A stretch of DNA of 64,000 nt from a bacterium (lineage in GTDB: Bacteria; Patescibacteriota; Minisyncoccia; Phycocordibacterales; JAGLPS01), in contig JAUYHB010000027.1 of assembly GCA_030690305.1 (NCBI GenBank), positions 15,670 to 79,669 of the forward strand. The letters run 5' to 3'. Shown here one piece after another: positions 4,234-41,285 of the stretch. Under the pieces are notes generated by a model that saw only the letters and a list, made by a program, of their open reading frames with translations, was not told where the DNA came from and searched no databases. The translations under genes were made by a program, and so were the position numbers. Numbering within the stretch: the stretch's first letter is position 1; every line of letters starts with the position of its first letter.

Positions 4234-5334
4234 ATGCTTTCAATCGGAATTGTCGGGCTTCCAAATGTCGGAAAATCAACGTTGTTTAACGCGCTGACCC
4301 TCAAGTCTGTTCCCGCGGAAAACTTTCCTTTTTGCACCATTGACCCATCGGTAGGCATTGTTGCCGTGCCGGACGAACGGTTGTGGAAACTTACAACATT
4401 CAGCACATCGGCAAAAACCATTCCTGCCGCCATTGAATTTGTCGATATTGCCGGGCTTGTCAAAGGAGCCTCGGAAGGCGAAGGCCTTGGCAACCAATTC
4501 TTAAGTCACATCAGGGAGGTTGATGCCATTGCGGAAGTGGTGCGTATTTTTGAAGACCAAAACATCATTCACGTTGACGGGAAAATCCAGCCGCTGTCCG
4601 ACATTGAAACAATCAATCTCGAGCTTGTTTTGGCAGATTTGCAGACGGTTACGAAACGTAAGGGAAGTATTGAAAAAGACGCACGGCGAGGAGACAAAGT
4701 CGCGCTCATCGAATCGGGGGTATTGAATAAAATCGAGCCGGTTCTTAAAGAGGGGAAACCCGTTTCCACGCTCCAGTTTACGGAAGAAGAAAAACCCGTG
4801 CTTAGAAATCTTCACCTTCTGACCTCAAAACCGATTATGTATGTTCTCAACAAAAAAGGCGGGGGAACGAACCTTGATGAACTGAAAGACGAGCGCTGGA
4901 CGGCACTTTTAAAGTTTTTTGAAGACACTAACGCCAAGTGGACGATTGCCGACGCAAAAATCGAGGACGAACTCAAAGAACTTGTTGGAGAAGAAAAAGA
5001 AACGTTCCGCAAGGAACTTGGGGGAAAAGATGACGGTATCGACACGCTCATCAAAAAGGGATACGAATTGCTGAATCTCATTACGTTTTTTACCACGGGA
5101 GAAGACGAAAGCCGCGCATGGACGATACGCCGCGATTCAAAAGCGCCCGTTGCGGGCGCCGCAATCCATACCGACTTTCAGCACAGATTCATTTGTGCCG
5201 AAGTCATTCCGTGGAACACGCTTCTCGAAGCCGGCTCATACGGCACCGCCCGGGAAAAAGGCCTTCTGCGCACCGAAGGGAAGGAATATGTCGTTAAAGA
5301 TGGTGATGTGATTGAGTTCAAAATTGGTGCGTAG
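4234..5334 (+). CDS. ychF: ribosome-binding ATPase YchF (Obg-like ATPase)
   Basis: G1 motif [18 protein letters not shown]; C-terminal TGS-like end ...[14 protein letters not shown]; about 365 aa. Confidence 0.9.
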
Positions 5335-33311: not shown

Positions 33312-34082
33312 ATGGCAACAAGTTTAGCTACAAAACCAAAATTAAGGGCGGTACCGGAGATATTTGCCGTGGCTGATTTTCAGGAAGAACAGAAATTTCT
33401 TCCGGCGTACCGTTTATTCCCGACAATTTTTCAGGCGTTTCTCACTCCCGTTATGCGCCTGTTTTTTTACATATTCGGAAGAATTGAAATAAAAGGTCTT
33501 GAAAATCTTAAACATATTCCTCACGGTGTGATTCTCGCCTCAAACCACATTAGCGAACTCGACCCTATTATTATTCCGGCTGTGCTACCGCTGTCTTCCC
33601 GTTTACGGCCTCTTTTCTTCACCTCCAGGCAACGAAAAACATACGTCCATAATCCTCGTTTTAGCTGGCGTGGTTATTTTTACGGAGGCTTATTGTTTAA
33701 ACTTCTTGGTGGGTATCCGGTTATAATCGGTATTCACAATTATGAGCAATCTCTTGCCGCGCATATCAAACTTGTTGACGAGGGCCGCACTGTTGTTATT
33801 TTCCCTGAAGGAACACGAACGCGCGACGGTAATTTGCGGGAAGCCAAAGGGGGAGTGGCGTATCTTGCGTACAGAACCAATGCTCCAATCGTCCCGATTT
33901 CAATTGACGGGTTATATAACATAAACCTTTTTGAGCTTCTTACGTTCAAAAGAAAAATAAAAATTTCTTTCGGAAAACCTTTTTTTGTCATGGATATTTT
34001 ACCTTCGCGAGAAGTTGAAATTCACGACTTCCATATTGCCGCCCAGGAAGTGATGAAGAAGATTAAAGAATTAAAGGGCTAA
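33312..34082 (+). CDS. plsC: lysophospholipid (1-acyl-sn-glycerol-3-phosphate) acyltransferase family protein
   Basis: NHISELD (HX4D) and FPEGTRTRDG acyltransferase motifs. Confidence 0.8.
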   Translation: MATSLATKPKLRAVPEIFAVADFQEEQKFLPAYRLFPTIFQAFLTPVMRLFFYIFGRIEIKGLENLKHIPHGVILASNHISELDPIIIPAVLPLSSRLRPLFFTSRQRKTYVHNPRFSWRGYFYGGLLFKLLGGYPVIIGIHNYEQSLAAHIKLVDEGRTVVIFPEGTRTRDGNLREAKGGVAYLAYRTNAPIVPISIDGLYNINLFELLTFKRKIKISFGKPFFVMDILPSREVEIHDFHIAAQEVMKKIKELKG

Positions 34083-34084
34083 AT

Positions 34085-34789
34085 ATGTTGGACACAAGAT
34101 TCTGGAAAAAATATTTCGAAGTATACGACCTACTCAATATCCTCGAGCCGTATCAGACACTGCTTCAAGATATCCGTGAACCCCTTGGCGAGATAGAAGG
34201 AATGAAAATTCTTGATGCGGGAGCTGGAACTGGTAACTTGGCGATTTTGCTTTCCCGAGAGGGTGCCGACGTTGTCGCTCTTGATTTTTCACAGGAAGGA
34301 CTTGGAAAATATCTTGAGAAATTTCCCTCGGGAAAAACTGTGCTTCATGACCTCACAGAACCGCTTCCGTTCGATTCCGAAACCTTTGACACTATTGTCT
34401 CGAATAATACGATTTACACTTTACCTAAAGAAACTCGTCCGTATGCATTTAAAGAGTTTTACCGAATTTTGAAACGAGGTGGAAAAATTGTCGTTTCAAA
34501 CGTGCATACTGGCTTTAAACCGATAAAAATTTATTTTGCCCACATTGGATGGAGTTTAAAAAACAAAGGTTTGGGGAAAACCATGGGGGAAGTGCTAAGT
34601 CTCTTAGTGCCGACAATGAAGATTTTTTACTATAATTCTCTTATCATAAAAGAGCATAAAGGTAATAATTTTGCTTTTATAGGCGAAAATGAGCAGAAAG
34701 AACTCCTCGAAAGCACGTTTTTCAAAGAAATTTCTCAAAACAAGTCCACGTATGCCAATCAGGCAATCCTTAATCACGCGATAAAATAA
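34085..34789 (+). CDS. class I SAM-dependent methyltransferase
   Basis: ILDAGAGTGNLAILL motif I and downstream motif II/III spacing. Confidence 0.75.
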   Translation: MLDTRFWKKYFEVYDLLNILEPYQTLLQDIREPLGEIEGMKILDAGAGTGNLAILLSREGADVVALDFSQEGLGKYLEKFPSGKTVLHDLTEPLPFDSETFDTIVSNNTIYTLPKETRPYAFKEFYRILKRGGKIVVSNVHTGFKPIKIYFAHIGWSLKNKGLGKTMGEVLSLLVPTMKIFYYNSLIIKEHKGNNFAFIGENEQKELLESTFFKEISQNKSTYANQAILNHAIK

Positions 34790-34843
34790 GCCATTCTAAA
34801 ATGGCTTGTTTTCTAATACAATTTACCTAATTCTCCAAGAGCT

Positions 34844-35596
34844 ATGAAGATTTACAAAAAACTTAAATTAGCAATAAAAGAAGGAGAAAAAGAAGTTATC
34901 TTTGGTGAAACTGAAACTGTAGATGAACTAAAACAAGTTTATGAATTCCGTTTTAAAGAATATTCGAGAAAAGGGTATATCATTCCCTCCCAGTTTCCCG
35001 ACAATCAAGAAAGTGACGAGTATGATAAATCTAGAAAATGTAAGTATTTTGTAGCAATTGTAGATAATAAAATTATTGGAACAGTTCGTCTTATCATTAC
35101 TGACCCTCTTCCTACGGAGAGTGTTTATCATTTTATCGAACCCGTTGAAATGCTAAAAATTCCTCGTGACAGAAGAGGGGAGCTGGGACGTCTGATTATT
35201 GTTCCCTTAGACCGTGAGAAGAAAATCTATCTTCCAAGAGGTCTCGTTCTACTTATGATGTTGGATATGTTGGCTGATTATGGTACACGAAATAATATTC
35301 AGGGAGGGTATGCATTTATTAAAAAAAGTCTTGAGCAAAAAATGAAATTACTCCGTTTTCCTTTTAATCCTATTAAAAAATTTGAATATATTGATTTAGC
35401 GACCAACACTATTCGTAATTATTTTCATCAACCTAATGACCCTGCCTTACCAATTTTTTATTTGACTGTGGATTTTAAAAAATATATTTCAAAAATTATT
35501 TATAATCCGTGGTTGTTCAAAAAAGAAAAAGATAACACCCTAATTCTTAGAAAAAACCTATATTCTTTTTTCCTCAAGGTTCTAGGGATAATTTAA
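34844..35596 (+). CDS. GNAT-fold N-acyltransferase of the autoinducer-synthase-like (LuxI/FeeM N-acyl amino acid synthase) type
   Basis: ...VYEFRFKEYSRKGYIIPSQFPDNQESDEYDKSRKCKYFVAIVDNKIIGTVRLII... and ...ELGRLIIVP... resemble the R-x-x-VF/E-x-D-x-D and GxxRL/ExSRL blocks of LuxI/FeeM-type acyl synthases. AT-rich gene. Confidence 0.55.
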   Translation: MKIYKKLKLAIKEGEKEVIFGETETVDELKQVYEFRFKEYSRKGYIIPSQFPDNQESDEYDKSRKCKYFVAIVDNKIIGTVRLIITDPLPTESVYHFIEPVEMLKIPRDRRGELGRLIIVPLDREKKIYLPRGLVLLMMLDMLADYGTRNNIQGGYAFIKKSLEQKMKLLRFPFNPIKKFEYIDLATNTIRNYFHQPNDPALPIFYLTVDFKKYISKIIYNPWLFKKEKDNTLILRKNLYSFFLKVLGII

Positions 35597-35623
35597 GTTA
35601 TAATGAAAGGAATAATAATTTAA

Positions 35624-37186
35624 ATGGAAAATTTGATTGTACCAATTTTATATATCGTGGTGGCAGTTAATGTTATTCTCGCTTTTGTTATTTTCTCTCG
35701 AGGTCTTAAGAATTTAAAAAATCTTCTTTTTGCACTGATTGCTCTTACGACAGCAATATGGAGCGTTGCTATTATAGGTTTTTTTTCACCAGAATATCGA
35801 AGTTTTTTTGAGTGGATACGTCTAACCCACATCTCCGCTCTTTTAATTGCATTTGTGTTTTTTCATTTTTCGTTAGTTTTTCCTCAAAAAGTCTACAGAA
35901 GTTCATTGATAGCTTATTTATTCAGCATACCCTGCTTGGTTGCTTTATACTTTTTGTTTTTTACAAATCTGATAGTGAGTAACAGTGGTACAGGTGTCGC
36001 ATACGGCATTGAGGGTGGTTATATATTTTATGGCTTACTTTTGACATTCTACTTTTTCTCTGGTTATTTTTTCTTAGACGTCCAGTATAAACGCGCAAAA
36101 ACCGAAGAACAAAAAGGTCAAGTGAAGTATGTTTTTATTGGTTCCTTACTTACTTCTGCACTAGCCATAGTACCTGATTTAATTTTCCCTTTTTTTAAAA
36201 TTTTTGATTATACATGGTTAGGCCCGATATTCACCTTATTTTTAGTCGTGTCAATCTTTATTGCCATGGTTAGATTCCAGCTTTTCAATATTAGAATCAT
36301 TTTAACTGAGCTTTTTACAGGAGTAATTATCATTGTAATGATGATAGATTTATTCCTTTCAAGCTCTACCTTCGACCTATTAGTAAAATCAGGGATATTG
36401 GTATTAATTACATTTTTTGGTTTCTTATTAATAAAAAGTGTTTATAGGGAGGTTGAACAGAGAGAACATATTGAAAAACTGGCGGGGGAGCTTGAGGAGG
36501 CCAACAGACGCCAGGAGAGCCTTCTGCACTTCATAGGGCATGAAATCAAGGGATACTTCACCAAGAGCCACTGGGCGCTTTCCTCAATGATTGACGGAGA
36601 CTACGGAGAAATTGCTCCTGATTTAAAGATGCTTACCACCCAGGCCCTAGACGACACCAGGCAGGGCATTGATATGGTTGATGGTATTTTAAAGGCTGGT
36701 AATTTTAAAAAAGGGACAGTGAGTTTCAACATGAAGCCTTTCGATTTCAAGGGCGAGCTTAACAATGTTATTGGGATGCTTAAGCCTAATATTGAGACGA
36801 AAAAACTGGCCCTCCAACTTAATATTGACGAAAACCAGGATTATACGCTAAATGGCGACGGAGAGCAGATAAGCAAGCACGTCCTAAGAAATCTTATTGA
36901 TAACGCGATTAAATACACGCCTTCCGGAACCATTACAATCAGCCTTTCAAAGAAAGACAGCAAAATTCTTTTCTCTGTTAAAGATTCTGGGGTAGGAATT
37001 AAAGAAGAAGATAGAAAATTGCTGTTTACCGAAGGTGGACGAGGCAAGGATTCGGTAAAAATAAACGTCCACAGCACCGGCTACGGCCTCTTTATCGCAA
37101 AACAAATTGTAGACGCCCACAAAGGGCGCATTTGGGCTGATTCTACCGGCCCCAATCAGGGCTCCACTTTCTCTATAGAGATTTAA
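35624..37186 (+). CDS. sensor histidine kinase with an N-terminal 7-TM-like membrane domain; no adjacent response regulator
   Basis: About 7 hydrophobic helices (aa 1-280), HisKA H-box LHFIGHEIKGY, HATPase_c N/G boxes (LIDNAIKYT, VKDSGVGI, GTGYGLFIAKQIV...GSTFSIEI). Confidence 0.85.
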   Translation: MENLIVPILYIVVAVNVILAFVIFSRGLKNLKNLLFALIALTTAIWSVAIIGFFSPEYRSFFEWIRLTHISALLIAFVFFHFSLVFPQKVYRSSLIAYLFSIPCLVALYFLFFTNLIVSNSGTGVAYGIEGGYIFYGLLLTFYFFSGYFFLDVQYKRAKTEEQKGQVKYVFIGSLLTSALAIVPDLIFPFFKIFDYTWLGPIFTLFLVVSIFIAMVRFQLFNIRIILTELFTGVIIIVMMIDLFLSSSTFDLLVKSGILVLITFFGFLLIKSVYREVEQREHIEKLAGELEEANRRQESLLHFIGHEIKGYFTKSHWALSSMIDGDYGEIAPDLKMLTTQALDDTRQGIDMVDGILKAGNFKKGTVSFNMKPFDFKGELNNVIGMLKPNIETKKLALQLNIDENQDYTLNGDGEQISKHVLRNLIDNAIKYTPSGTITISLSKKDSKILFSVKDSGVGIKEEDRKLLFTEGGRGKDSVKINVHSTGYGLFIAKQIVDAHKGRIWADSTGPNQGSTFSIEI

Positions 37187-37202
37187 CCTGAAGTGGTTTT
37201 TC

Positions 37203-37231
37203 TTGACAAAGCAAGAAAAAGATTATATTAT
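37203..37231 (+). promoter_or_regulatory. near-consensus sigma-70 promoter for the rSAM-peptide operon, followed by a palindrome
   Basis: TTGACA - 17 nt - TATTAT; downstream GTCTTTG-ACA-AAAGAC inverted repeat (37245-37260) and AAAGGAGG RBS before ATG 37295. Confidence 0.6.
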
Positions 37232-37294
37232 ATGAGGAAGTTGGTCTTTGACAAAAGACTTTTGAATCTCTAGACAGAAAGGAGGATAGATGAC

Positions 37295-38350
37295 ATGAGT
37301 TCATTCCAAGTGAAAATTGTTGGTGATTTCTGTAACATCCGTTGTACATATTGCAGAAACCGTGACTTTGATCAAGATACGAATGTTTTGATGTCTGTGG
37401 CCAATCTAGAAAAACTTTTTGTTTTTCTAGATTCGTTACCACAAGCACGAATTCGTGTGAATTGGCACGGGGGCGAGCCATTGCTGGCAGGAAAAAAGTT
37501 TTTCCATCATATCTTGAGACTGGAAAACCAATATAAGCAAAAAATATGGATGAATGCTGTTCAGACAAATGCCATGTTGATTGATGATGATTGGGCTAAA
37601 CTTTTCCATGATAACCACTTTGATATCGGAGTAAGTATTGATGGAAGTGAACAAACGCATAACAGTGACAGAATAAATGTTGCTGGACGTGGAACATATA
37701 AGGAAGCGATGCGTGGTGTGGAAGCTCTTCGTCATAATAGCATTCATCCCGGCGTTATCTGTACTGTTACTAAAAAGACTGTCAGATACGCAAAAGAGAT
37801 GCTTCTTGATCTAGTGGATGCTGGGTTTAAAAGCATTGCTTTCAATGCTTTCTATAACACAGCGTCAGATTGTGATGGTGATACGTACGGACTAACAGAC
37901 ACAGAATGGCTGGCGTTTCTCATAGAAATATTTGAAACGTGGCTCGTACTTAATGATCCCACAATTCGTGTTCGCGAGTTGGATAGCATGCTTGCATGGA
38001 CCAAATCAAAAAGTGCTAATTCTTGCGTGTATAAAGGTACCTGTTATCAGTGGTTCGCTATCCATTACACTGGCGACATTTATCCTTGTGAAAGGCTGGG
38101 TAAATCTACCCATTTTGGAAGTATTGACTCCCTGAGAACTTTTCAGGACTTAGTGAATACTCCTGTTTTCCTTAATTGGAAAGAGTCAATTGGCCAACTT
38201 CCTCAAAGGTGTCGCACTTGCAGTTTGCAGTCATTGTGTCATAATGGTTGCGTTAGCCATCGGAAAGCAGATGAAGAGGGGGTGCCTCTTTACAGGTATT
38301 GTGAAAGTAGGCTCGGTTTCTATGATTACATCAAGGAAAGACTTAAATGA
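37295..38350 (+). CDS. radical SAM enzyme with a C-terminal SPASM domain (peptide-maturase type)
   Basis: CNIRCTYC (CX3CX2C) radical-SAM cluster motif. C-terminal auxiliary-cluster cysteines CVYKGTC...YPCE...CRTCSLQSLCHNGC are typical of SPASM (anSME/PqqE/MftC/AlbA-like) enzymes. Confidence 0.85.
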   Translation: MSSFQVKIVGDFCNIRCTYCRNRDFDQDTNVLMSVANLEKLFVFLDSLPQARIRVNWHGGEPLLAGKKFFHHILRLENQYKQKIWMNAVQTNAMLIDDDWAKLFHDNHFDIGVSIDGSEQTHNSDRINVAGRGTYKEAMRGVEALRHNSIHPGVICTVTKKTVRYAKEMLLDLVDAGFKSIAFNAFYNTASDCDGDTYGLTDTEWLAFLIEIFETWLVLNDPTIRVRELDSMLAWTKSKSANSCVYKGTCYQWFAIHYTGDIYPCERLGKSTHFGSIDSLRTFQDLVNTPVFLNWKESIGQLPQRCRTCSLQSLCHNGCVSHRKADEEGVPLYRYCESRLGFYDYIKERLK

Positions 38351-38365
38351 AAGGGGGTAAGGACC

Positions 38366-38551
38366 ATGTCACGTAAGAGTAGTTCTTTAGTTAATGAACG
38401 GCAGTCATCGCTATCTGGAAATCTCGCGCTTCAAGGTTCATTTAGCCGGATTGAGGATGGTAGTCGTTTTTCATCAAAAATACCGGAAGTCACGAATTAC
38501 GATGACTATCAGTATTCCGATTGCGACTACGATGACAGTGGAAAAAACTGA
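38366..38551 (+). CDS. putative RiPP precursor peptide (61 aa) with a Tyr/Asp-rich C-terminal core
   Basis: ATG 15 nt after the rSAM stop with AAAGGGGGT RBS. Sequence MSRKSSSLVNERQSSLSGNLALQGSFSRIEDGSRFSSKIPEVTNYDDYQYSDCDYDDSGKN. A strong terminator follows. Confidence 0.55.
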   Translation: MSRKSSSLVNERQSSLSGNLALQGSFSRIEDGSRFSSKIPEVTNYDDYQYSDCDYDDSGKN

Positions 38552-38574
38552 CACGAAGTAAGTTTTTAGTTAGC

Positions 38575-38610
38575 CAAGAGCGGGTTTGCAAAAACCCGCT
38601 CTTTTTTTTA
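38575..38610 (+). terminator. strong rho-independent terminator ending the rSAM-peptide operon
   Basis: GAGCGGGTTT-gca-AAACCCGCTC hairpin followed by TTTTTTTT. Confidence 0.75.
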
Positions 38611-38623
38611 ATATGAATACATT

Positions 38624-39409
38624 GTGAATAAAGATTTGTTAATGTCTTATGATCAGTACTCGAAAATTAAGCATGAAACTCCATATTTTTACATTGCCAA
38701 ATCAACAAAACAATCAATCTACTATTTTGGTTCCAGTCATTCCCATGATCCCAATCATCCGCAATTTGAATTATTAAAAGCGAAATGGAACGAATTTCTT
38801 GATGAAACTAAGGGACTGAAAACAGTAGTTCTTGTAGAAGCACATGAAATGCCAGAGCCAGAAGCTACACTGGAAAAAGAAATTATTAAACATGGTGAGT
38901 CAGGTGCGGGAGCCTATCTAGCGTATAAAAATAAGGCGCTGCTTATCTTTGGAGAACCTCAAAACGATAAAATAATTGTCCATCTGCTTCAATATTTTTC
39001 TAAAGAAGAGATTCTTTTTTGGTATGAATGCCAAGCTATAAAATTTTGGCAGCAACACAAAAAGGGAAGAAGCATACATGAATTTCTTTCAAATCATACT
39101 GAGAAATATCGTAAATTATTTAAATGGCCGGATTTGGTTATATCTTTAGAACTTGTTAATTCGATATATAAAAAATTATTTAATCAAGAGTTGAATATTG
39201 ATGACGAAGAATTATTCTCTCAAATTACCACTCCAATAACTGTTTTATCAAGAATTAATGAATTGTCCAGAAGCCAATCTATCTACAGAAATGAGCAGAT
39301 ATTGGTGCAAATAGAAAAATATTGGAAAGAGGGAAGTAATATTTTTGTTATCTATGGTGCTGGTCATGCGGTTATGCAGGAATCCGCCATCCGTAGTTTA
39401 GTTGGCTAG
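38624..39409 (+). CDS. TraB/GumN (Tiki-like) family protein, putative metalloprotease
   Basis: N-terminal ...IYYFGSSHSHDPNHP... and C-terminal ...FVIYGAGHAVMQESAIRSLVG match the two conserved GxxH blocks of TraB/GumN/Tiki proteins. GTG start; very AT-rich. Confidence 0.55.
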   Translation: MNKDLLMSYDQYSKIKHETPYFYIAKSTKQSIYYFGSSHSHDPNHPQFELLKAKWNEFLDETKGLKTVVLVEAHEMPEPEATLEKEIIKHGESGAGAYLAYKNKALLIFGEPQNDKIIVHLLQYFSKEEILFWYECQAIKFWQQHKKGRSIHEFLSNHTEKYRKLFKWPDLVISLELVNSIYKKLFNQELNIDDEELFSQITTPITVLSRINELSRSQSIYRNEQILVQIEKYWKEGSNIFVIYGAGHAVMQESAIRSLVG

Positions 39410-39432
39410 ACAATTCTTAAGGAATATATTTA

Positions 39433-39903
39433 ATGATACTACGACAAAGAGTAGCTGCGATTGTGGTTAAAGAAGATACGGTGCTTCTAATGCATCGTAT
39501 TAATGATGGAAAGGAATATTATTCTTTTCCTGGTGGTGGCAAGGAAGAAAATGAAAGTCTAGAAACAGGAGCGCTTCGAGAACTTTCTGAAGAAACGACA
39601 GTTGATGCAATAATTGACCGTTTGGTGTATAAGGTTATATGGGATAGCGGTGATGAGAACTACTTCTATCTTTGTAATTACATTTCAGGAGAACCAAAAC
39701 TAAGAGAGGATGCCGAAGAGCTAAAAGAGATGGCTGACGGAAAACAGGCGTATAAGCCGGAATGGGTTTATATTTCCGATTTACCCAACACCCTTTTATA
39801 TCAGTTAGAAATCAGAGATTTACTTATAAAAGACTTAAAAAATGGCTTTCTCGAACATCCTCAAGAACTCTTTATAAAAGTTGAAGAAAGACGTCGGATA
39901 TAA
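39433..39903 (+). CDS. Nudix hydrolase
   Basis: Nudix box GGGKEENESLETGALRELSEETTV. Confidence 0.8.
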   Translation: MILRQRVAAIVVKEDTVLLMHRINDGKEYYSFPGGGKEENESLETGALRELSEETTVDAIIDRLVYKVIWDSGDENYFYLCNYISGEPKLREDAEELKEMADGKQAYKPEWVYISDLPNTLLYQLEIRDLLIKDLKNGFLEHPQELFIKVEERRRI

Positions 39904-39908
39904 ATTAA

Positions 39909-40664
39909 ATGAAAGAAAATACTTCATGGGGAAATGTTGCGGATTGGTATGATACGCACCTTGAACAGGGCGGGGATACGTATCAGCGCAAAGTAATATT
40001 GCCGAATTTGCTTCGGGTGCTTGATTTGAAAGCGGGGGAAAGCGTGCTTGATTTAGCCTGCGGGCAGGGATTTTTCTCCCGTGAATTCGCAAATGCCGGT
40101 GCCAAGGTCATTGGGACCGACATTTCAAAGGAACTTATTGGGTACGCACAAGAACATTCTCCCAAAGAAATTACTTTTCATGTTTCTCCCGCCGACAATC
40201 TTTCTTTCGCTAAAGATGCTGAATTTGATGTGGTTACGATTATTCTTGCAATTCAAAATATTGAAAATATTTCGGGAGTTTTTTCTGAAGTAAAACGTGT
40301 TCTTTCTCCGCAAGGCGGGCTAATCATGGTGCTCAACCACCCGGCATTTAGAATCCCGAAGCAATCGGAATGGGGATGGGACGAGGAAAAGCAAATTCAG
40401 TACCGCAGAATCGACCGCTATCTTTCTCCTCAAAAAATTTCCATTGAAATGCATCCGGGGGAAGAAAAAGGGGAGCAAACGATTTCTTACCACCGTTCCT
40501 TACAGGACTTTTTCAAAGCATTGTCCAAAAACGGTTTTGCAATATCCAAACTTGAAGAATGGATTTCCCACAGAGAAAGCCAGGAAGGCCCGCGTCAGAA
40601 AGCGGAAGACACCGCCCGCAAAGAAATCCCGCTATTTCTGATGCTTGAGGCTAAAAAGATGTAG
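39909..40664 (+). CDS. class I SAM-dependent methyltransferase
   Basis: VLDLACGQGFFSREFA motif I, acidic motif II (GTDIS), IMVLNHPAF. Confidence 0.75.
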   Translation: MKENTSWGNVADWYDTHLEQGGDTYQRKVILPNLLRVLDLKAGESVLDLACGQGFFSREFANAGAKVIGTDISKELIGYAQEHSPKEITFHVSPADNLSFAKDAEFDVVTIILAIQNIENISGVFSEVKRVLSPQGGLIMVLNHPAFRIPKQSEWGWDEEKQIQYRRIDRYLSPQKISIEMHPGEEKGEQTISYHRSLQDFFKALSKNGFAISKLEEWISHRESQEGPRQKAEDTARKEIPLFLMLEAKKM

Positions 40665-41285
40665 TTGGTATTCTCAAACAAAAAATCTTGTATGTCACAC
40701 AATGTATCGTGGGAAAAATATATTAAGAAAACCGAGTCAAACCCACCCCGAGTTTTACTTACTGAAGCAGTAGAACATGTGCGGAATAAAGATGAGGCTC
40801 TTGATTTGGGAGCTGGAGCAATGAACGATTCAAAATACCTTTTATCAGTTGGTTTTAAACATGTAACGGCAATTGACAGTGATATCGCTGCCCAAGAAAA
40901 GGCAAAAGACATCTTAGGAGATAAGTTTTCTTTTTTCTTAAGTAGCTTTGAAAATTTTTCTTTTCCTCATGAGACGTATGACTTGATAAATGCTCAGTAC
41001 GCTTTACCGTATAATTCTCCAAAAACATTTAACAGTTTAATAAAGAACATTACTCTCTCACTTAAACCTAAAGGTGTGTTTGCAGGTCAACTATTTGGTA
41101 ATAAAGATTCTTGGAATACTGAAAACAGTGGTAAAACCTTTCATACAAAAGAAGAGGCTGAAAAGTTATTTTTAGATTTTAAGATAATCAAATTTATAGA
41201 GGAAGAAAATGATAAACCGAGTGTTCTTGGAAAACCAAAACATCAACACCTGTTTAATTTTATAGTTTCAAAACCAGAAAAATAA
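40665..41285 (+). CDS. class I SAM-dependent methyltransferase (small, TehB/TPMT-like size)
   Basis: ALDLGAGAMNDSKYL motif I and AIDSD motif II. Begins immediately after the previous stop (TTG at 40665 or ATG at 40692); AT-rich. Confidence 0.65.
   Translation: MVFSNKKSCMSHNVSWEKYIKKTESNPPRVLLTEAVEHVRNKDEALDLGAGAMNDSKYLLSVGFKHVTAIDSDIAAQEKAKDILGDKFSFFLSSFENFSFPHETYDLINAQYALPYNSPKTFNSLIKNITLSLKPKGVFAGQLFGNKDSWNTENSGKTFHTKEEAEKLFLDFKIIKFIEEENDKPSVLGKPKHQHLFNFIVSKPEK

What the first reader, a model, noticed from the sequence alone, without database searches (positions are those of the whole stretch)
38624..39409. TraB/GumN (Tiki-like) putative metalloprotease directly downstream of the peptide operon
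The TraB/PrgY family is known from enterococcal pheromone plasmids, where it handles small peptide signals. Tiki proteins of the same superfamily are metalloproteases that cleave N-termini. A member placed immediately after a rSAM-peptide operon is a plausible leader-peptidase or immunity/processing component. The gene is strongly AT-rich relative to its neighbours, which suggests separate acquisition.
Basis: partly seen in the sequence, partly recalled or inferred. Interest (0 to 1): 0.55.

Follow-up and report, generated by a model that had tools for sequence, protein, structure and literature searches.

The report
Distant TraB/Tiki-like hydrolase beside rSAM peptide genes
The gene is real and encodes a soluble, very distant relative of the TraB/Tiki hydrolases that almost always sits just after one radical-SAM enzyme and its small acidic peptide in tiny-genome (CPR) bacteria, so it is probably the enzyme that cuts or controls that peptide, though nothing has been tested biochemically.

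Summary
The ORF at 38624-39409 (+) is real. It encodes a soluble cytoplasmic protein of 261 aa (255 aa from the alternative ATG).

Family assignment holds only at the remote-homology level.
- Pfam TraB_PrgY_gumN scores 16.8 bits against a cut-off of 26.8.
- Both GxxH blocks, two Glu and an Arg are near-invariant.
- They align colinearly with the H/E/RN/H motifs of bona fide TraB/GumN proteins.
- The protein belongs to a large unannotated family of about 1,600 clusters, mostly from Candidate Phyla Radiation bacteria.

Linkage is strong in one direction.
- Starting from the rSAM, 25 of 27 resolvable non-redundant loci carry this gene on the same strand 120-330 nt downstream.
- Only about 8 of 33 species-level TraB-like loci carry an rSAM.

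The gene is not in the peptide operon. A covarying 12-bp terminator hairpin follows the precursor. Its invariant loop (TTGCAA) plus TAATAT 17 nt later looks like the gene's own promoter.

The AT-richness is real (GC 0.33 against 0.44). It is shared by other genes of the same low-GC stretch and recurs in relatives. Separate acquisition is therefore not supported.

The most likely role is leader or processing peptidase of the rSAM-modified peptide (about 0.4). Self-protection or signal shutdown, and an unrelated housekeeping role, are the rivals.

The parts
38624..39409 (+). CDS of the TraB/Tiki-like hydrolase (261 aa from GTG; alternative ATG at 38642 gives 255 aa). Soluble, no TM segment, pI 6.4.
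   Evidence: AF2 model pLDDT 91.9.
38729..38740 (+). First GxxH block (G30-S-S-H33, numbered from ATG 38642), at the end of the second beta-strand.
   Evidence: Invariant in 25 close homologues and at least 90% conserved in 134 relatives. Aligns with GSIH of YbaP and other TraB/GumN proteins.
38837..38839 (+). Glu66 at the end of the third strand (VVLVE), candidate catalytic or metal-binding Glu.
   Evidence: At least 90% conserved in A2. Aligns with invariant E67 of TraB/GumN.
38897..38899 (+). Glu86 (GESGAG motif), second near-invariant Glu.
39287..39292 (+). Arg216-Asn217 in the long helix before the last strand. R216 is the only fully invariant residue of the wide family.
   Evidence: Aligns with the R228-N229 motif of TraB/GumN. 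A conserved Arg is needed for substrate recognition in the TIKI-superfamily protease RRSP (PMC6254334).
39356..39367 (+). Second GxxH block (G239-A-G-H242).
   Evidence: This is the stretch that gives the Pfam PF01963 hit.
38576..38611 (+). 12-bp hairpin (38576-38603) followed by a T run. It is the intrinsic terminator of the rSAM-precursor unit.
   Evidence: Present in 26 of 34 distinct intergenic regions. In 18 relatives, 9 of 12 pairs covary, 95.4% of cells are paired, and 0 of 500 shuffles reach this.
38586..38614 (+). Putative promoter of the TraB-like gene: TTGCAA (38586-38591, the hairpin loop), 17 nt, TAATAT (38609-38614). The start codon follows 9 nt later, which suggests a leaderless or near-leaderless mRNA.
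   Evidence: Inference from near-invariant loop and -10-like columns while the stems vary. Spacing to the start codon is 6-10 nt in the seven relatives read by eye. The element is kept in L018, where the rSAM and peptide are replaced. It falls below the threshold of the consensus scan. Not tested experimentally.
38366..38551 (+). Precursor peptide (61 aa): leader with LALQGSFSRIE, and an acidic aromatic C-terminal core NYDDYQYSDCDYDDSGKN.
   Evidence: 27 distinct homologous precursors. No Pfam or NCBIfam hit.
37295..38350 (+). Radical SAM/SPASM peptide maturase (351 aa), below the cut-off of every named NCBIfam maturase family.
37203..37231 (+). Promoter-like site (TTGACA-17-TATTAT, 11 of 12 matches) upstream of the rSAM gene.
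   Evidence: consensus match only.
35624..37186 (+). HisKA_7TM sensor histidine kinase, a loosely associated partner of the module. No response regulator was found among ten other window ORFs scanned.
   Evidence: Homologue present in 9 of 15 representative loci of at least 7 kb, in variable position and orientation.
39433..39903 (+). NUDIX hydrolase gene 24 nt downstream. It may be co-transcribed with the TraB-like gene in this genome, but it is not conserved in relatives.

Best explanation
The gene encodes a soluble cytoplasmic hydrolase. It belongs to a previously unannotated, mainly CPR-restricted branch of the TIKI/TraB/PrgY/GumN superfamily.

Its candidate active site is two His (the two GxxH blocks), two Glu and one Arg.

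In one clade of this family the gene has become the fixed third member of a small module: radical SAM/SPASM maturase, then an acidic aromatic precursor peptide, then a terminator, then the TraB-like gene.

The rSAM and precursor are transcribed together and stop at a conserved hairpin. The TraB-like gene appears to be read from its own promoter. That promoter's -35 element lies in the hairpin loop, and the start codon follows the -10 element by 6-10 nt.

The most likely job of the protein is to hydrolyse the rSAM-modified peptide, that is, to remove the roughly 35-40-residue leader or otherwise trim it before release.

Shown: the ORF, residue conservation, remote homology, the linkage statistics and the hairpin covariation.

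Inferred: hydrolase activity, the peptide as substrate, the cleavage role, the promoter and the leaderless mRNA.
For: Homology and active site:
- Sub-threshold but consistent PF01963 hits in 22 of 25 and 27 of 134 relatives, best E 3.7e-6.
- The TraB/GumN HMM scores family members at 13-24 bits, against 2.7 bits at most for shuffles.
- hhalign is colinear over 227-230 columns and superposes GxxH, E, RN and GxxH.
- G30, H33, E66, E86, R216, G239 and H242 are near-invariant across 134 diverse relatives.
- The AF2 model (pLDDT 91.9) has the same order of strands and helices as a model of E. coli YbaP.
- A 2His/2Glu site plus an Arg is the active site described for TIKI-superfamily proteases (PMC6254334).

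Linkage:
- rSAM, precursor and TraB-like gene are adjacent in loci at 75, 65 and 55% identity while other neighbours differ.
- 7 of 33 species-level loci carry the orthologous rSAM and 1 more carries another rSAM. These are concentrated in one clade of the protein tree.
- From the rSAM side, 25 of 27 resolvable non-redundant clusters are linked.
- Identities of the two proteins co-vary, from 84.6/74.9 down to 48.3/26.1%.
- rSAM (32 of 33) and the TraB-like gene (31 of 33) are the only near-universal genes. No other peptidase or transporter recurs.

Localisation: no signal peptide or TM segment.

Precedent: Tiki/TraB-family proteins were noted next to SPASM rSAM genes in CPR graspetide loci and proposed as leader peptidases (PMC8939145).
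Against: - No assay exists. The substrate and even peptidase chemistry are inferred; superfamily members include esterases and a haem-binding protein.
- The protein fails Pfam's gathering threshold.
- Foldseek found no PDB relative. The YbaP control shows that this test is nearly blind for the family.
- A conserved terminator separates the gene from the precursor, so co-expression is not guaranteed.
- About three quarters of the wider family sit in unrelated contexts: methionine aminopeptidase, UvrD, SufB, ABC transporter and others.
- Two rSAM-precursor loci lack the gene nearby (L063, L070).
- In L018 the TraB-like gene and its hairpin persist although the orthologous rSAM and peptide are replaced.
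- No conserved cleavage motif was identified at the leader-core junction.
Confidence: 0.4

Rival explanations
1. Self-protection or signal shutdown. The hydrolase destroys or inactivates the cell's own mature peptide, or unmodified precursor, inside the producer. This would parallel PrgY/TraB limiting endogenous pheromone in enterococci, or (from my own knowledge) immunity peptidases such as MccF. It would be expressed independently of the rSAM-precursor operon.
For: - The gene has its own putative promoter and a terminator separates it from the precursor.
- A HisKA_7TM sensor kinase recurs near the module, in 9 of 15 long loci. This is compatible with a peptide-signalling cassette.
- PrgY is described as a Tiki-like peptidase that degrades endogenous pheromone (PMC7117660).
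- The gene persists in L018 with a swapped rSAM module.
Against: - PrgY/TraB are membrane proteins thought to act outside the cell. This protein has no TM segment or signal peptide.
- No response regulator or importer is linked.
- No bioactivity of the peptide is known.
- The near-obligate adjacency fits a biosynthetic role equally well.
Confidence: 0.2
2. A housekeeping CPR hydrolase with no functional tie to the peptide. The adjacency would reflect conserved synteny of a variable low-GC stretch upstream of trpS, and the hairpin would simply be the terminator of whatever lies upstream.
For: - The family is large: 1,610 clusters at E<1e-3.
- It is mostly found in unrelated contexts.
- A separate transcription unit is indicated.
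- L018 keeps the gene without the orthologous rSAM.
- L063 and L070 keep the rSAM and peptide without it.
- The stretch lies upstream of trpS in several relatives.
Against: - 25 of 27 resolvable rSAM clusters are linked, down to 45-48% rSAM identity. These include a second, distant clade with a different hairpin.
- Flanking genes are shuffled on both sides while same-strand adjacency at 120-330 nt is kept.
- The two proteins co-diverge.
Confidence: 0.2
3. A non-peptidase role within the pathway. It could be an esterase or amidohydrolase acting on a further modification, for example an acyl or methyl ester. The low-GC stretch also encodes a FeeM-like N-acyl amino acid synthase, an acyltransferase and methyltransferases. 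Alternatively it could be a non-catalytic peptide-binding partner of the rSAM, which lacks an obvious recognition domain.
For: - The superfamily includes erythromycin esterases and the haem-binding ChaN (PMC6254334).
- FeeM-like, PlsC-like and methyltransferase genes are nearby.
- Methyltransferases recur in some relatives.
Against: - The acyl and methyl enzymes are not conserved with the module; each is present in 5 of 33 loci at most.
- Near-invariant His, Glu and Arg residues argue for catalysis rather than mere binding.
Confidence: 0.1

Closest known systems
TraB/PrgY/GumN family (Pfam PF01963), e.g. E. coli YbaP
   Same: - Similar length, about 260 aa.
- Same order of motifs: GxxH, strand-terminal Glu, R-N in the penultimate helix, GxxH. 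All superpose in a colinear profile-profile alignment.
- Same order of secondary-structure elements in the AF2 models.
   Different: - Scores 10 bits below the Pfam gathering threshold.
- hhalign probability is only about 10%.
- It has an extra near-invariant Glu (GExG) and its own helical middle region.
- It forms a separate family, mostly in CPR bacteria, with no Pfam or NCBIfam model.
Enterococcal PrgY (pCF10) and TraB (pAD1, pPD1), pheromone shutdown proteins
   Same: - Same superfamily.
- Genetically tied to a small ribosomal peptide.
- A sensor system is encoded nearby (PMC7117660).
   Different: - PrgY is a membrane protein thought to act extracellularly on an unmodified lipoprotein-signal-derived heptapeptide on a conjugative plasmid.
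- Here the protein is soluble and cytoplasmic, chromosomal, in CPR bacteria, and paired with an rSAM-modified peptide.
Tiki1/2 (Wnt N-terminal protease) and RRSP (Ras/Rap1-specific endopeptidase), TIKI superfamily
   Same: - The predicted His/Glu active site and a conserved Arg.
- RRSP cleaves Tyr|Asp within a very acidic stretch (PMC6254334). This resembles the Tyr/Asp-rich cores here, but that is a lead only.
   Different: - No detectable sequence or Foldseek similarity to RRSP or the other solved superfamily structures.
- Different domain context.
- Metal dependence is unknown. Tiki is metal-dependent and RRSP is metal-independent.
Tiki/TraB-family genes in CPR 'branch 2' graspetide loci (Makarova et al. 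2022, PMC8939145)
   Same: - CPR bacteria.
- Co-location with SPASM rSAM maturases and methyltransferases.
- Proposed leader-cleavage role.
- L087 shows an ATP-grasp-like ORF (by eye) plus a second GxxH...GxxH protein next to this rSAM.
   Different: - There is no ATP-grasp ligase in this window or in most related loci.
- The module here is rSAM, acidic aromatic precursor and TraB-like gene.
- I could not establish that the published cluster is the same protein family. The supplements gave no match.

Membership tests
Pfam PF01963 TraB/PrgY/GumN | Whole-protein score at or above the curated gathering threshold (26.8 bits) | tested here: not met
   16.8 bits, E 0.0066, C-terminal 38 residues only. 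The best of 134 relatives reaches E 3.7e-6.
Pfam PF01963 TraB/PrgY/GumN | Two GxxH blocks, one near the N-terminus after a beta-hairpin and one at the last strand | tested here: met
   G30-x-x-H33 and G239-x-x-H242 are invariant in 25 homologues and at least 90% conserved in 134. They align to GSIH and GALH of TraB/GumN.
Pfam PF01963 TraB/PrgY/GumN | Conserved strand-terminal Glu and R-N motif in the helix preceding the second GxxH | tested here: met
   E66 aligns with E67, and R216-N217 with R228-N229, in the hhalign alignments. R216 is invariant.
Pfam PF01963 TraB/PrgY/GumN | Statistically significant full-length profile similarity | tested here: inconclusive
   hhalign P 0.003-0.004 but probability 9-10%. 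The TraB HMM gives 16.9-23.9 bits against 2.7 at most for shuffled sequences.
TIKI superfamily (Tiki, TraB, EreA, ChaN, PMT, RRSP) | Parallel beta-sheet core flanked by helices, with the His/Glu residues clustered | tested here: inconclusive
   The confident AF2 model has the same element order as a YbaP model. Foldseek against PDB finds nothing. The YbaP control also fails to retrieve RRSP or Bcr135-like structures significantly. BFVD gives 'TraB family' viral proteins only at E 0.08-0.22.
TIKI superfamily (active enzymes) | 2His/2Glu catalytic set plus substrate-recognition Arg (PMC6254334) | tested here: met
   H33, E66, E86, H242 and R216 are near-invariant at the sequence level. Catalysis itself was not tested.
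PrgY/TraB pheromone-shutdown proteins | Membrane anchoring with an extracytoplasmic catalytic domain, on a pheromone-responsive plasmid | tested here: not met
   No hydrophobic segment: maximum Kyte-Doolittle average over 19 residues is 0.77. The context is chromosomal and CPR, between dnaJ and trpS. Only about 10 of 174 family members have an N-terminal anchor or signal.
RiPP leader or processing peptidase (functional class) | Conserved co-location with maturase and precursor | tested here: met
   25 of 27 resolvable non-redundant rSAM clusters. It is the only near-universal partner gene.
RiPP leader or processing peptidase (functional class) | Co-transcription with the biosynthetic genes | tested here: not met
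   A covarying terminator hairpin lies between the precursor and this gene. A separate promoter is inferred. Read-through cannot be excluded.
RiPP leader or processing peptidase (functional class) | Site-specific cleavage of the precursor | not testable with these tools
   Needs an enzyme assay or co-expression with mass spectrometry.

The most novel reading that the evidence does not exclude
The protein founds a new class of RiPP-processing enzymes, a cytoplasmic Tiki/TraB-superfamily peptidase dedicated to rSAM-cyclised, Tyr/Asp-rich peptides. Together with the recurrent 7TM histidine kinase, the module would be a modified-peptide signalling cassette in CPR episymbionts. The TraB-like enzyme would either mature the signal or, like PrgY, keep the producer from responding to itself.
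Probability: 0.3. Interest if true: 0.65.

Novelty: new variant of a known kind. Interest (0 to 1): 0.45.

Why it matters
To my knowledge no TIKI/TraB-superfamily enzyme has been shown experimentally to process a RiPP. The proteases of most rSAM-cyclised peptides are also unknown.

This module is compact: maturase, precursor and one candidate hydrolase. Its linkage is near-obligate, so it offers a directly testable three-gene system.

It also gives a first functional handle on a protein family of about 1,600 clusters, mostly from CPR bacteria, that Pfam and NCBIfam leave unnamed.

It hints at peptide-based communication or antagonism in organisms that cannot yet be cultured alone.

The terminator-embedded promoter would be an unusually clear regulatory element for CPR genomes.

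Tried and rejected
- Profile search of PDB sequences with both family alignments gave only chance-level hits: RGS domains and VbhT.
- Foldseek of the confident model against PDB gave nothing below E 0.2. I ran E. coli YbaP as a positive control. It retrieves only a Tetrahymena complex-IV subunit, with RRSP and 2qgm at non-significant E. The negative result is therefore uninformative rather than evidence against the fold.
- Foldseek against BFVD gave one strong match, to an uncharacterised Edafosvirus protein. This adds no function.
- hhalign of the family profile against the single YbaP sequence found nothing. A 7-17-sequence TraB profile was needed.
The genome survey therefore used the close alignment A1.
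- PADLOC and PHROGs gave no meaningful hit. The JetC coiled-coil match at 16.6 bits was rejected as spurious.
- I looked for a response regulator among ten other window ORFs and found none.
- I searched the supplements of PMC8939145 for Zambryskibacteria or TraB entries, to tie this family to their cluster, and found nothing.
- 'Separate acquisition from AT-richness' was considered and rejected.
- A thioether (CX3D, PapB-like) reading of the core was considered. It is weakened because the Cys is not invariant across precursors, whereas aromatic-x-Asp repeats are.
Full report
**1. The observation**

An ORF runs from a GTG at 38624 to 39409 on the + strand (261 aa). An in-frame ATG at 38642 would give 255 aa. 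Database homologues either start at the ATG-equivalent or begin MNK(N/D)LLMSY, which is what the GTG reading gives.

Upstream lie a radical SAM/SPASM enzyme (37295-38350) and a 61-aa ORF (38366-38551). The rSAM matches Pfam Radical_SAM, Fer4_12 and SPASM. Every named NCBIfam maturase family scores far below its cut-off.

Between the peptide ORF and the gene sits a 12-bp G+C-rich hairpin (38576-38603) followed by a T run. It is the strongest terminator-like site in the 8 kb scanned.

The protein has no hydrophobic segment (maximum 19-residue Kyte-Doolittle average 0.77) and a pI of 6.4. It is a soluble cytoplasmic protein.

**2. Is it TraB/GumN/Tiki-like?**

By curated thresholds it is not.
- Pfam PF01963 gives 16.8 bits (E 0.0066) against a gathering score of 26.8, over the last 38 residues only.
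- NCBIfam gives nothing.
- No PDB sequence matches either family profile.

The weak signal is nevertheless consistent.
- 22 of 25 close homologues and 27 of 134 wider relatives hit PF01963 (best E 3.7e-6). A few hit DUF5694, which I recall, without having checked it here, as being in the same clan.
- I built a small profile of bona fide TraB/GumN proteins: E. coli YbaP plus plasmid-borne and other members, all carrying PF01963.
- hhalign between that profile and the 134-sequence family alignment gives one full-length colinear alignment of 227-230 columns (P 0.003-0.004, probability about 10%). It superposes GxxH on GSIH, E66 on E67, R216-N217 on R228-N229, and GAGH on GALH.
- An HMM of the 17 TraB/GumN sequences scores P0001, listed at 100% identity to the window protein, at 16.9 bits and relatives up to 23.9 bits. 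Composition-matched shuffles reach 2.7 bits at most.

Structure prediction agrees but does not prove it.
- An AlphaFold2 model from the 25-sequence alignment is confident (pLDDT 91.9, pTM 0.85). It has the element order beta-hairpin, GxxH, helix, strand ending in Glu, helical region with one strand, long helix carrying R-N, strand with GxxH, C-terminal helix.
- A model of YbaP shows the same order.
- Foldseek found no PDB relative for the window protein.
- The YbaP control also failed to retrieve RRSP (E 4.7) or a Bcr135-like structure (E 7.3). It found only a Tetrahymena complex-IV subunit. That negative result therefore carries little weight.
- In BFVD the best match is an uncharacterised Edafosvirus protein (E 1.3e-8, TM 0.75). 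Two viral 'TraB family' proteins appear only at E 0.08-0.22.

I conclude that the protein is a remote homologue within the TIKI/TraB superfamily and is not a member of PF01963 as curated. Near-invariant G30, H33, E66, E86, R216, G239 and H242 across 134 diverse relatives match the 2His/2Glu-plus-Arg active site described for superfamily proteases (PMC6254334). 'Metalloprotease' is not established, because the superfamily contains metal-dependent members (Tiki) and metal-independent ones (RRSP, EreB).

**3. The family**

The word-indexed search found only 25 proteins, the named ones being Candidatus Zambryskibacteria, and none had a precomputed Pfam domain. The exhaustive profile search found 1,610 clusters (50% identity) at E<1e-3 and 897 at E<1e-10, typically 255-290 aa.

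In species-representative genomes the relatives are mostly CPR/Patescibacteria: Paceibacterota, Nomura-, Yonath-, Woese-, Komeili-, Specht-, Kaiser- and Taylorbacteria, and Saccharimonadia. A few MAGs are labelled Gammaproteobacteria or Thermodesulfobacteriota.

About 10 of 174 members carry an N-terminal signal or anchor. The rest look cytoplasmic.

**4. Linkage with the rSAM-peptide pair**

Contigs encoding homologues at 75, 65 and 55% identity all show rSAM (355-371 aa), a gap of about 300 nt, then the TraB-like gene, while the other neighbours differ. The gaps encode homologous precursors.

Among 33 species-level loci of the TraB-like family:
- 7 have the orthologous rSAM and precursor directly upstream.
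- 1 (L018, 72% identical TraB-like) has a different 448-aa rSAM plus an HExxH protein.
- Seven of these eight fall in one clade of a neighbour-joining tree, where 7 of 10 members are rSAM-linked. L045 is an outlier.
- Elsewhere the upstream genes are heterogeneous: methionine aminopeptidase twice, UvrD, SufB, iPGM plus prepilin peptidase, an ABC transporter, NYN, DUF2130.

The reciprocal test is much stronger.
- I searched metagenome contigs with the rSAM alignment, which is independent of the TraB-like gene. This returned 42 loci in 33 clusters at 95% rSAM identity.
- 25 clusters have the TraB-like gene on the same strand 120-330 nt after the rSAM.
- 2 do not (L063, L070).
- 6 are cut by a contig end.
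- This holds down to 45-48% rSAM identity.

Identities of the two proteins to the window proteins fall together across 8 loci, from 84.6/74.9% to 48.3/26.1%.

In 33 representative loci, rSAM (32) and the TraB-like gene (31) are the only near-universal genes. A HisKA_7TM histidine kinase comes next (11 of 33 overall; 9 of 15 loci of at least 7 kb; variable side and strand). Everything else is at 5 or fewer. No other peptidase or exporter is conserved. An M16 peptidase and a MacB-type ABC system occur in only some relatives.

**5. Transcriptional architecture**

26 of 34 distinct intergenic regions have a hairpin plus T tract after the precursor.

In 18 distinct relatives the 12-bp stem is 95.4% paired, with double-sided changes at 9 of 12 pairs. 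None of 500 shuffles reaches this, and slid controls are far lower.

Unusually for a terminator, the apical TTTGCAAAAA is nearly invariant, and so is a TAnnAT hexamer 16-17 nt downstream. In the eight sequences read by eye (the window and seven relatives), the start codon follows that hexamer by 6-10 nt.

I infer a promoter whose -35 element (TTGCAA, 38586-38591) sits in the terminator loop and whose -10 element is TAATAT (38609-38614). It would give a leaderless or near-leaderless mRNA. It scores 8 of 12, below the consensus scan's threshold, and it is untested.

L018 keeps this element although its rSAM and peptide are different, so the element travels with the TraB-like gene.

A good promoter-like site (TTGACA-17-TATTAT, 37203-37231) precedes the rSAM.

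The module is therefore two adjacent transcription units, not one operon.

**6. The precursor**

27 distinct precursors align. They share:
- a leader with (S/N)xALQGAFxRIE;
- a variable linker;
- a very acidic core with repeated aromatic-x-Asp triplets (YSD, YTD, FTD, HTD, WSD, YVD), often ending Y-x-D-C-P-G-E.

The Cys is not invariant. From my own knowledge of three-residue cyclophane ('triceptide') maturases, the repeats fit that chemistry better than a thioether. Several such families appear among the sub-threshold NCBIfam hits of the rSAM. This is a lead only.

RRSP, a TIKI-superfamily protease, cleaves Tyr|Asp in an acidic stretch (PMC6254334). I note the resemblance and draw nothing from it.

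**7. Base composition**

- The gene's GC is 0.332 (GC3 0.275), 2.6 SD below the window's 57 ORF-derived genes (0.442 +/- 0.042) and below the rSAM (0.405).
- The whole 33.3-41.3 kb stretch between dnaJ and trpS is low in GC. The FeeM-like gene (0.313) and one methyltransferase (0.327) are as low.
- The same rSAM-high, TraB-like-low offset is seen in L004, L017, L020 and L045, where the pair has co-diverged.

The AT-richness is real, but it does not indicate that this gene was acquired separately from the rSAM and peptide.

**8. Mechanism**

Best-supported reading (confidence about 0.4): a cytoplasmic His/Glu hydrolase recruited from a widespread CPR family as the dedicated processing enzyme of the rSAM-modified peptide, most simply its leader peptidase. 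It is the only conserved third gene, it has a protease-family active site, and most RiPP pathways need such an enzyme.

Rivals:
- a PrgY- or MccF-like self-protection or shutdown hydrolase (0.2). The separate promoter and the recurrent 7TM kinase favour this. The cytoplasmic location is unlike PrgY.
- an unrelated housekeeping hydrolase kept nearby by synteny (0.2). The family's broad contexts and L018, L063 and L070 favour this. The 25-of-27 linkage amid shuffled flanks disfavours it.
- a non-peptidase or non-catalytic role (0.1).

**9. Comparison with what is known, and novelty**

Makarova et al. (PMC8939145) noted Tiki/TraB-family genes beside SPASM rSAM and methyltransferase genes in CPR graspetide loci and suggested leader cleavage. 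L087 here shows an ATP-grasp-like ORF (judged by eye) and a second GxxH...GxxH protein next to this rSAM. The general idea therefore has a published precedent.

In my two targeted literature searches I found no description of the following:
- the specific rSAM, acidic aromatic precursor and TraB-like module;
- its near-obligate linkage;
- the terminator-embedded promoter;
- the existence of this large unnamed family.

I rate it a new variant of a known kind, of moderate interest (0.45).

Noticed in passing
window 38576-38614; alignment A6 of 18 relatives: The terminator hairpin after the precursor covaries strongly (9 of 12 pairs), yet its loop TTTGCAAAAA and a TAnnAT hexamer 16-17 nt downstream are nearly invariant. 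In the eight sequences read by eye, the TraB-like start codon follows 6-10 nt later. This looks like a promoter nested in a terminator, driving a leaderless mRNA.
   Followed up: partly
window 38366-38551; 27 distinct homologues in L017-L094: The precursor family has the leader motif (S/N)xALQGAFxRIE. The acidic core has repeated aromatic-x-Asp triplets and often ends YxDCPGE. The Cys is not invariant, which suggests three-residue cyclophane (triceptide-like) chemistry rather than a thioether. The rSAM is below the cut-off of every named NCBIfam maturase family.
   Followed up: partly
window 33312-41285: An 8-kb low-GC stretch (genes at 0.31-0.45 GC, most below 0.42) lies between dnaJ and trpS (housekeeping genes about 0.46-0.48). 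It carries a PlsC-like acyltransferase, three methyltransferases, a FeeM-like N-acyl amino acid synthase (34844-35596, GC 0.313), a HisKA_7TM kinase, the rSAM module and a NUDIX gene. Relatives have the module upstream of trpS with different gene content.
   Followed up: partly
window 35624-37186: The HisKA_7TM sensor kinase has no response regulator nearby; none was found among ten other window ORFs scanned. A homologous kinase recurs near the rSAM module in 9 of 15 long related loci, on either side and either strand.
   Followed up: partly
L018 3450-8399: In a relative with a 72%-identical TraB-like gene, the orthologous rSAM and peptide are replaced. In their place are a 448-aa rSAM, a candidate 50-aa precursor (4522-4674, ending GCGY) and three HExxH-motif proteins with no Pfam match. 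The arrangement resembles FxsB/FxsC-type systems (from memory). The TraB-like gene keeps its hairpin and promoter-like element.
   Followed up: partly
L087 1040-4442: Here the TraB-like gene lies upstream of the rSAM. Between them are an ATP-grasp-like ORF (motif YIFLEINCNGQW, judged by eye) and a 247-aa protein with two GxxH-type motifs (GEIHG, GHLHA). This echoes the CPR 'branch 2' graspetide loci described in PMC8939145.
   Followed up: no
L070 645-3142: An rSAM (63% identical) and a homologous precursor sit in what looks like a higher-GC contig (judged from its translated ORFs, not computed) without the TraB-like gene. A 330-aa protein with a signal-peptide-like N-terminus follows instead. 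This may be a transfer of the pair outside CPR.
   Followed up: no
L007/L020 240-6517: In one Zambryskibacteria relative the module is preceded by a MacA/MacB-type ABC exporter (HlyD-like, ATPase, two FtsX permeases) and an M16 peptidase. These are candidate export and processing genes and are absent from the window.
   Followed up: no
BFVD hit A0A3G4ZS86 (Edafosvirus): The only strong structural match of the model is an uncharacterised giant-virus protein (E 1.3e-8, TM 0.75, 17% identity).
   Followed up: no
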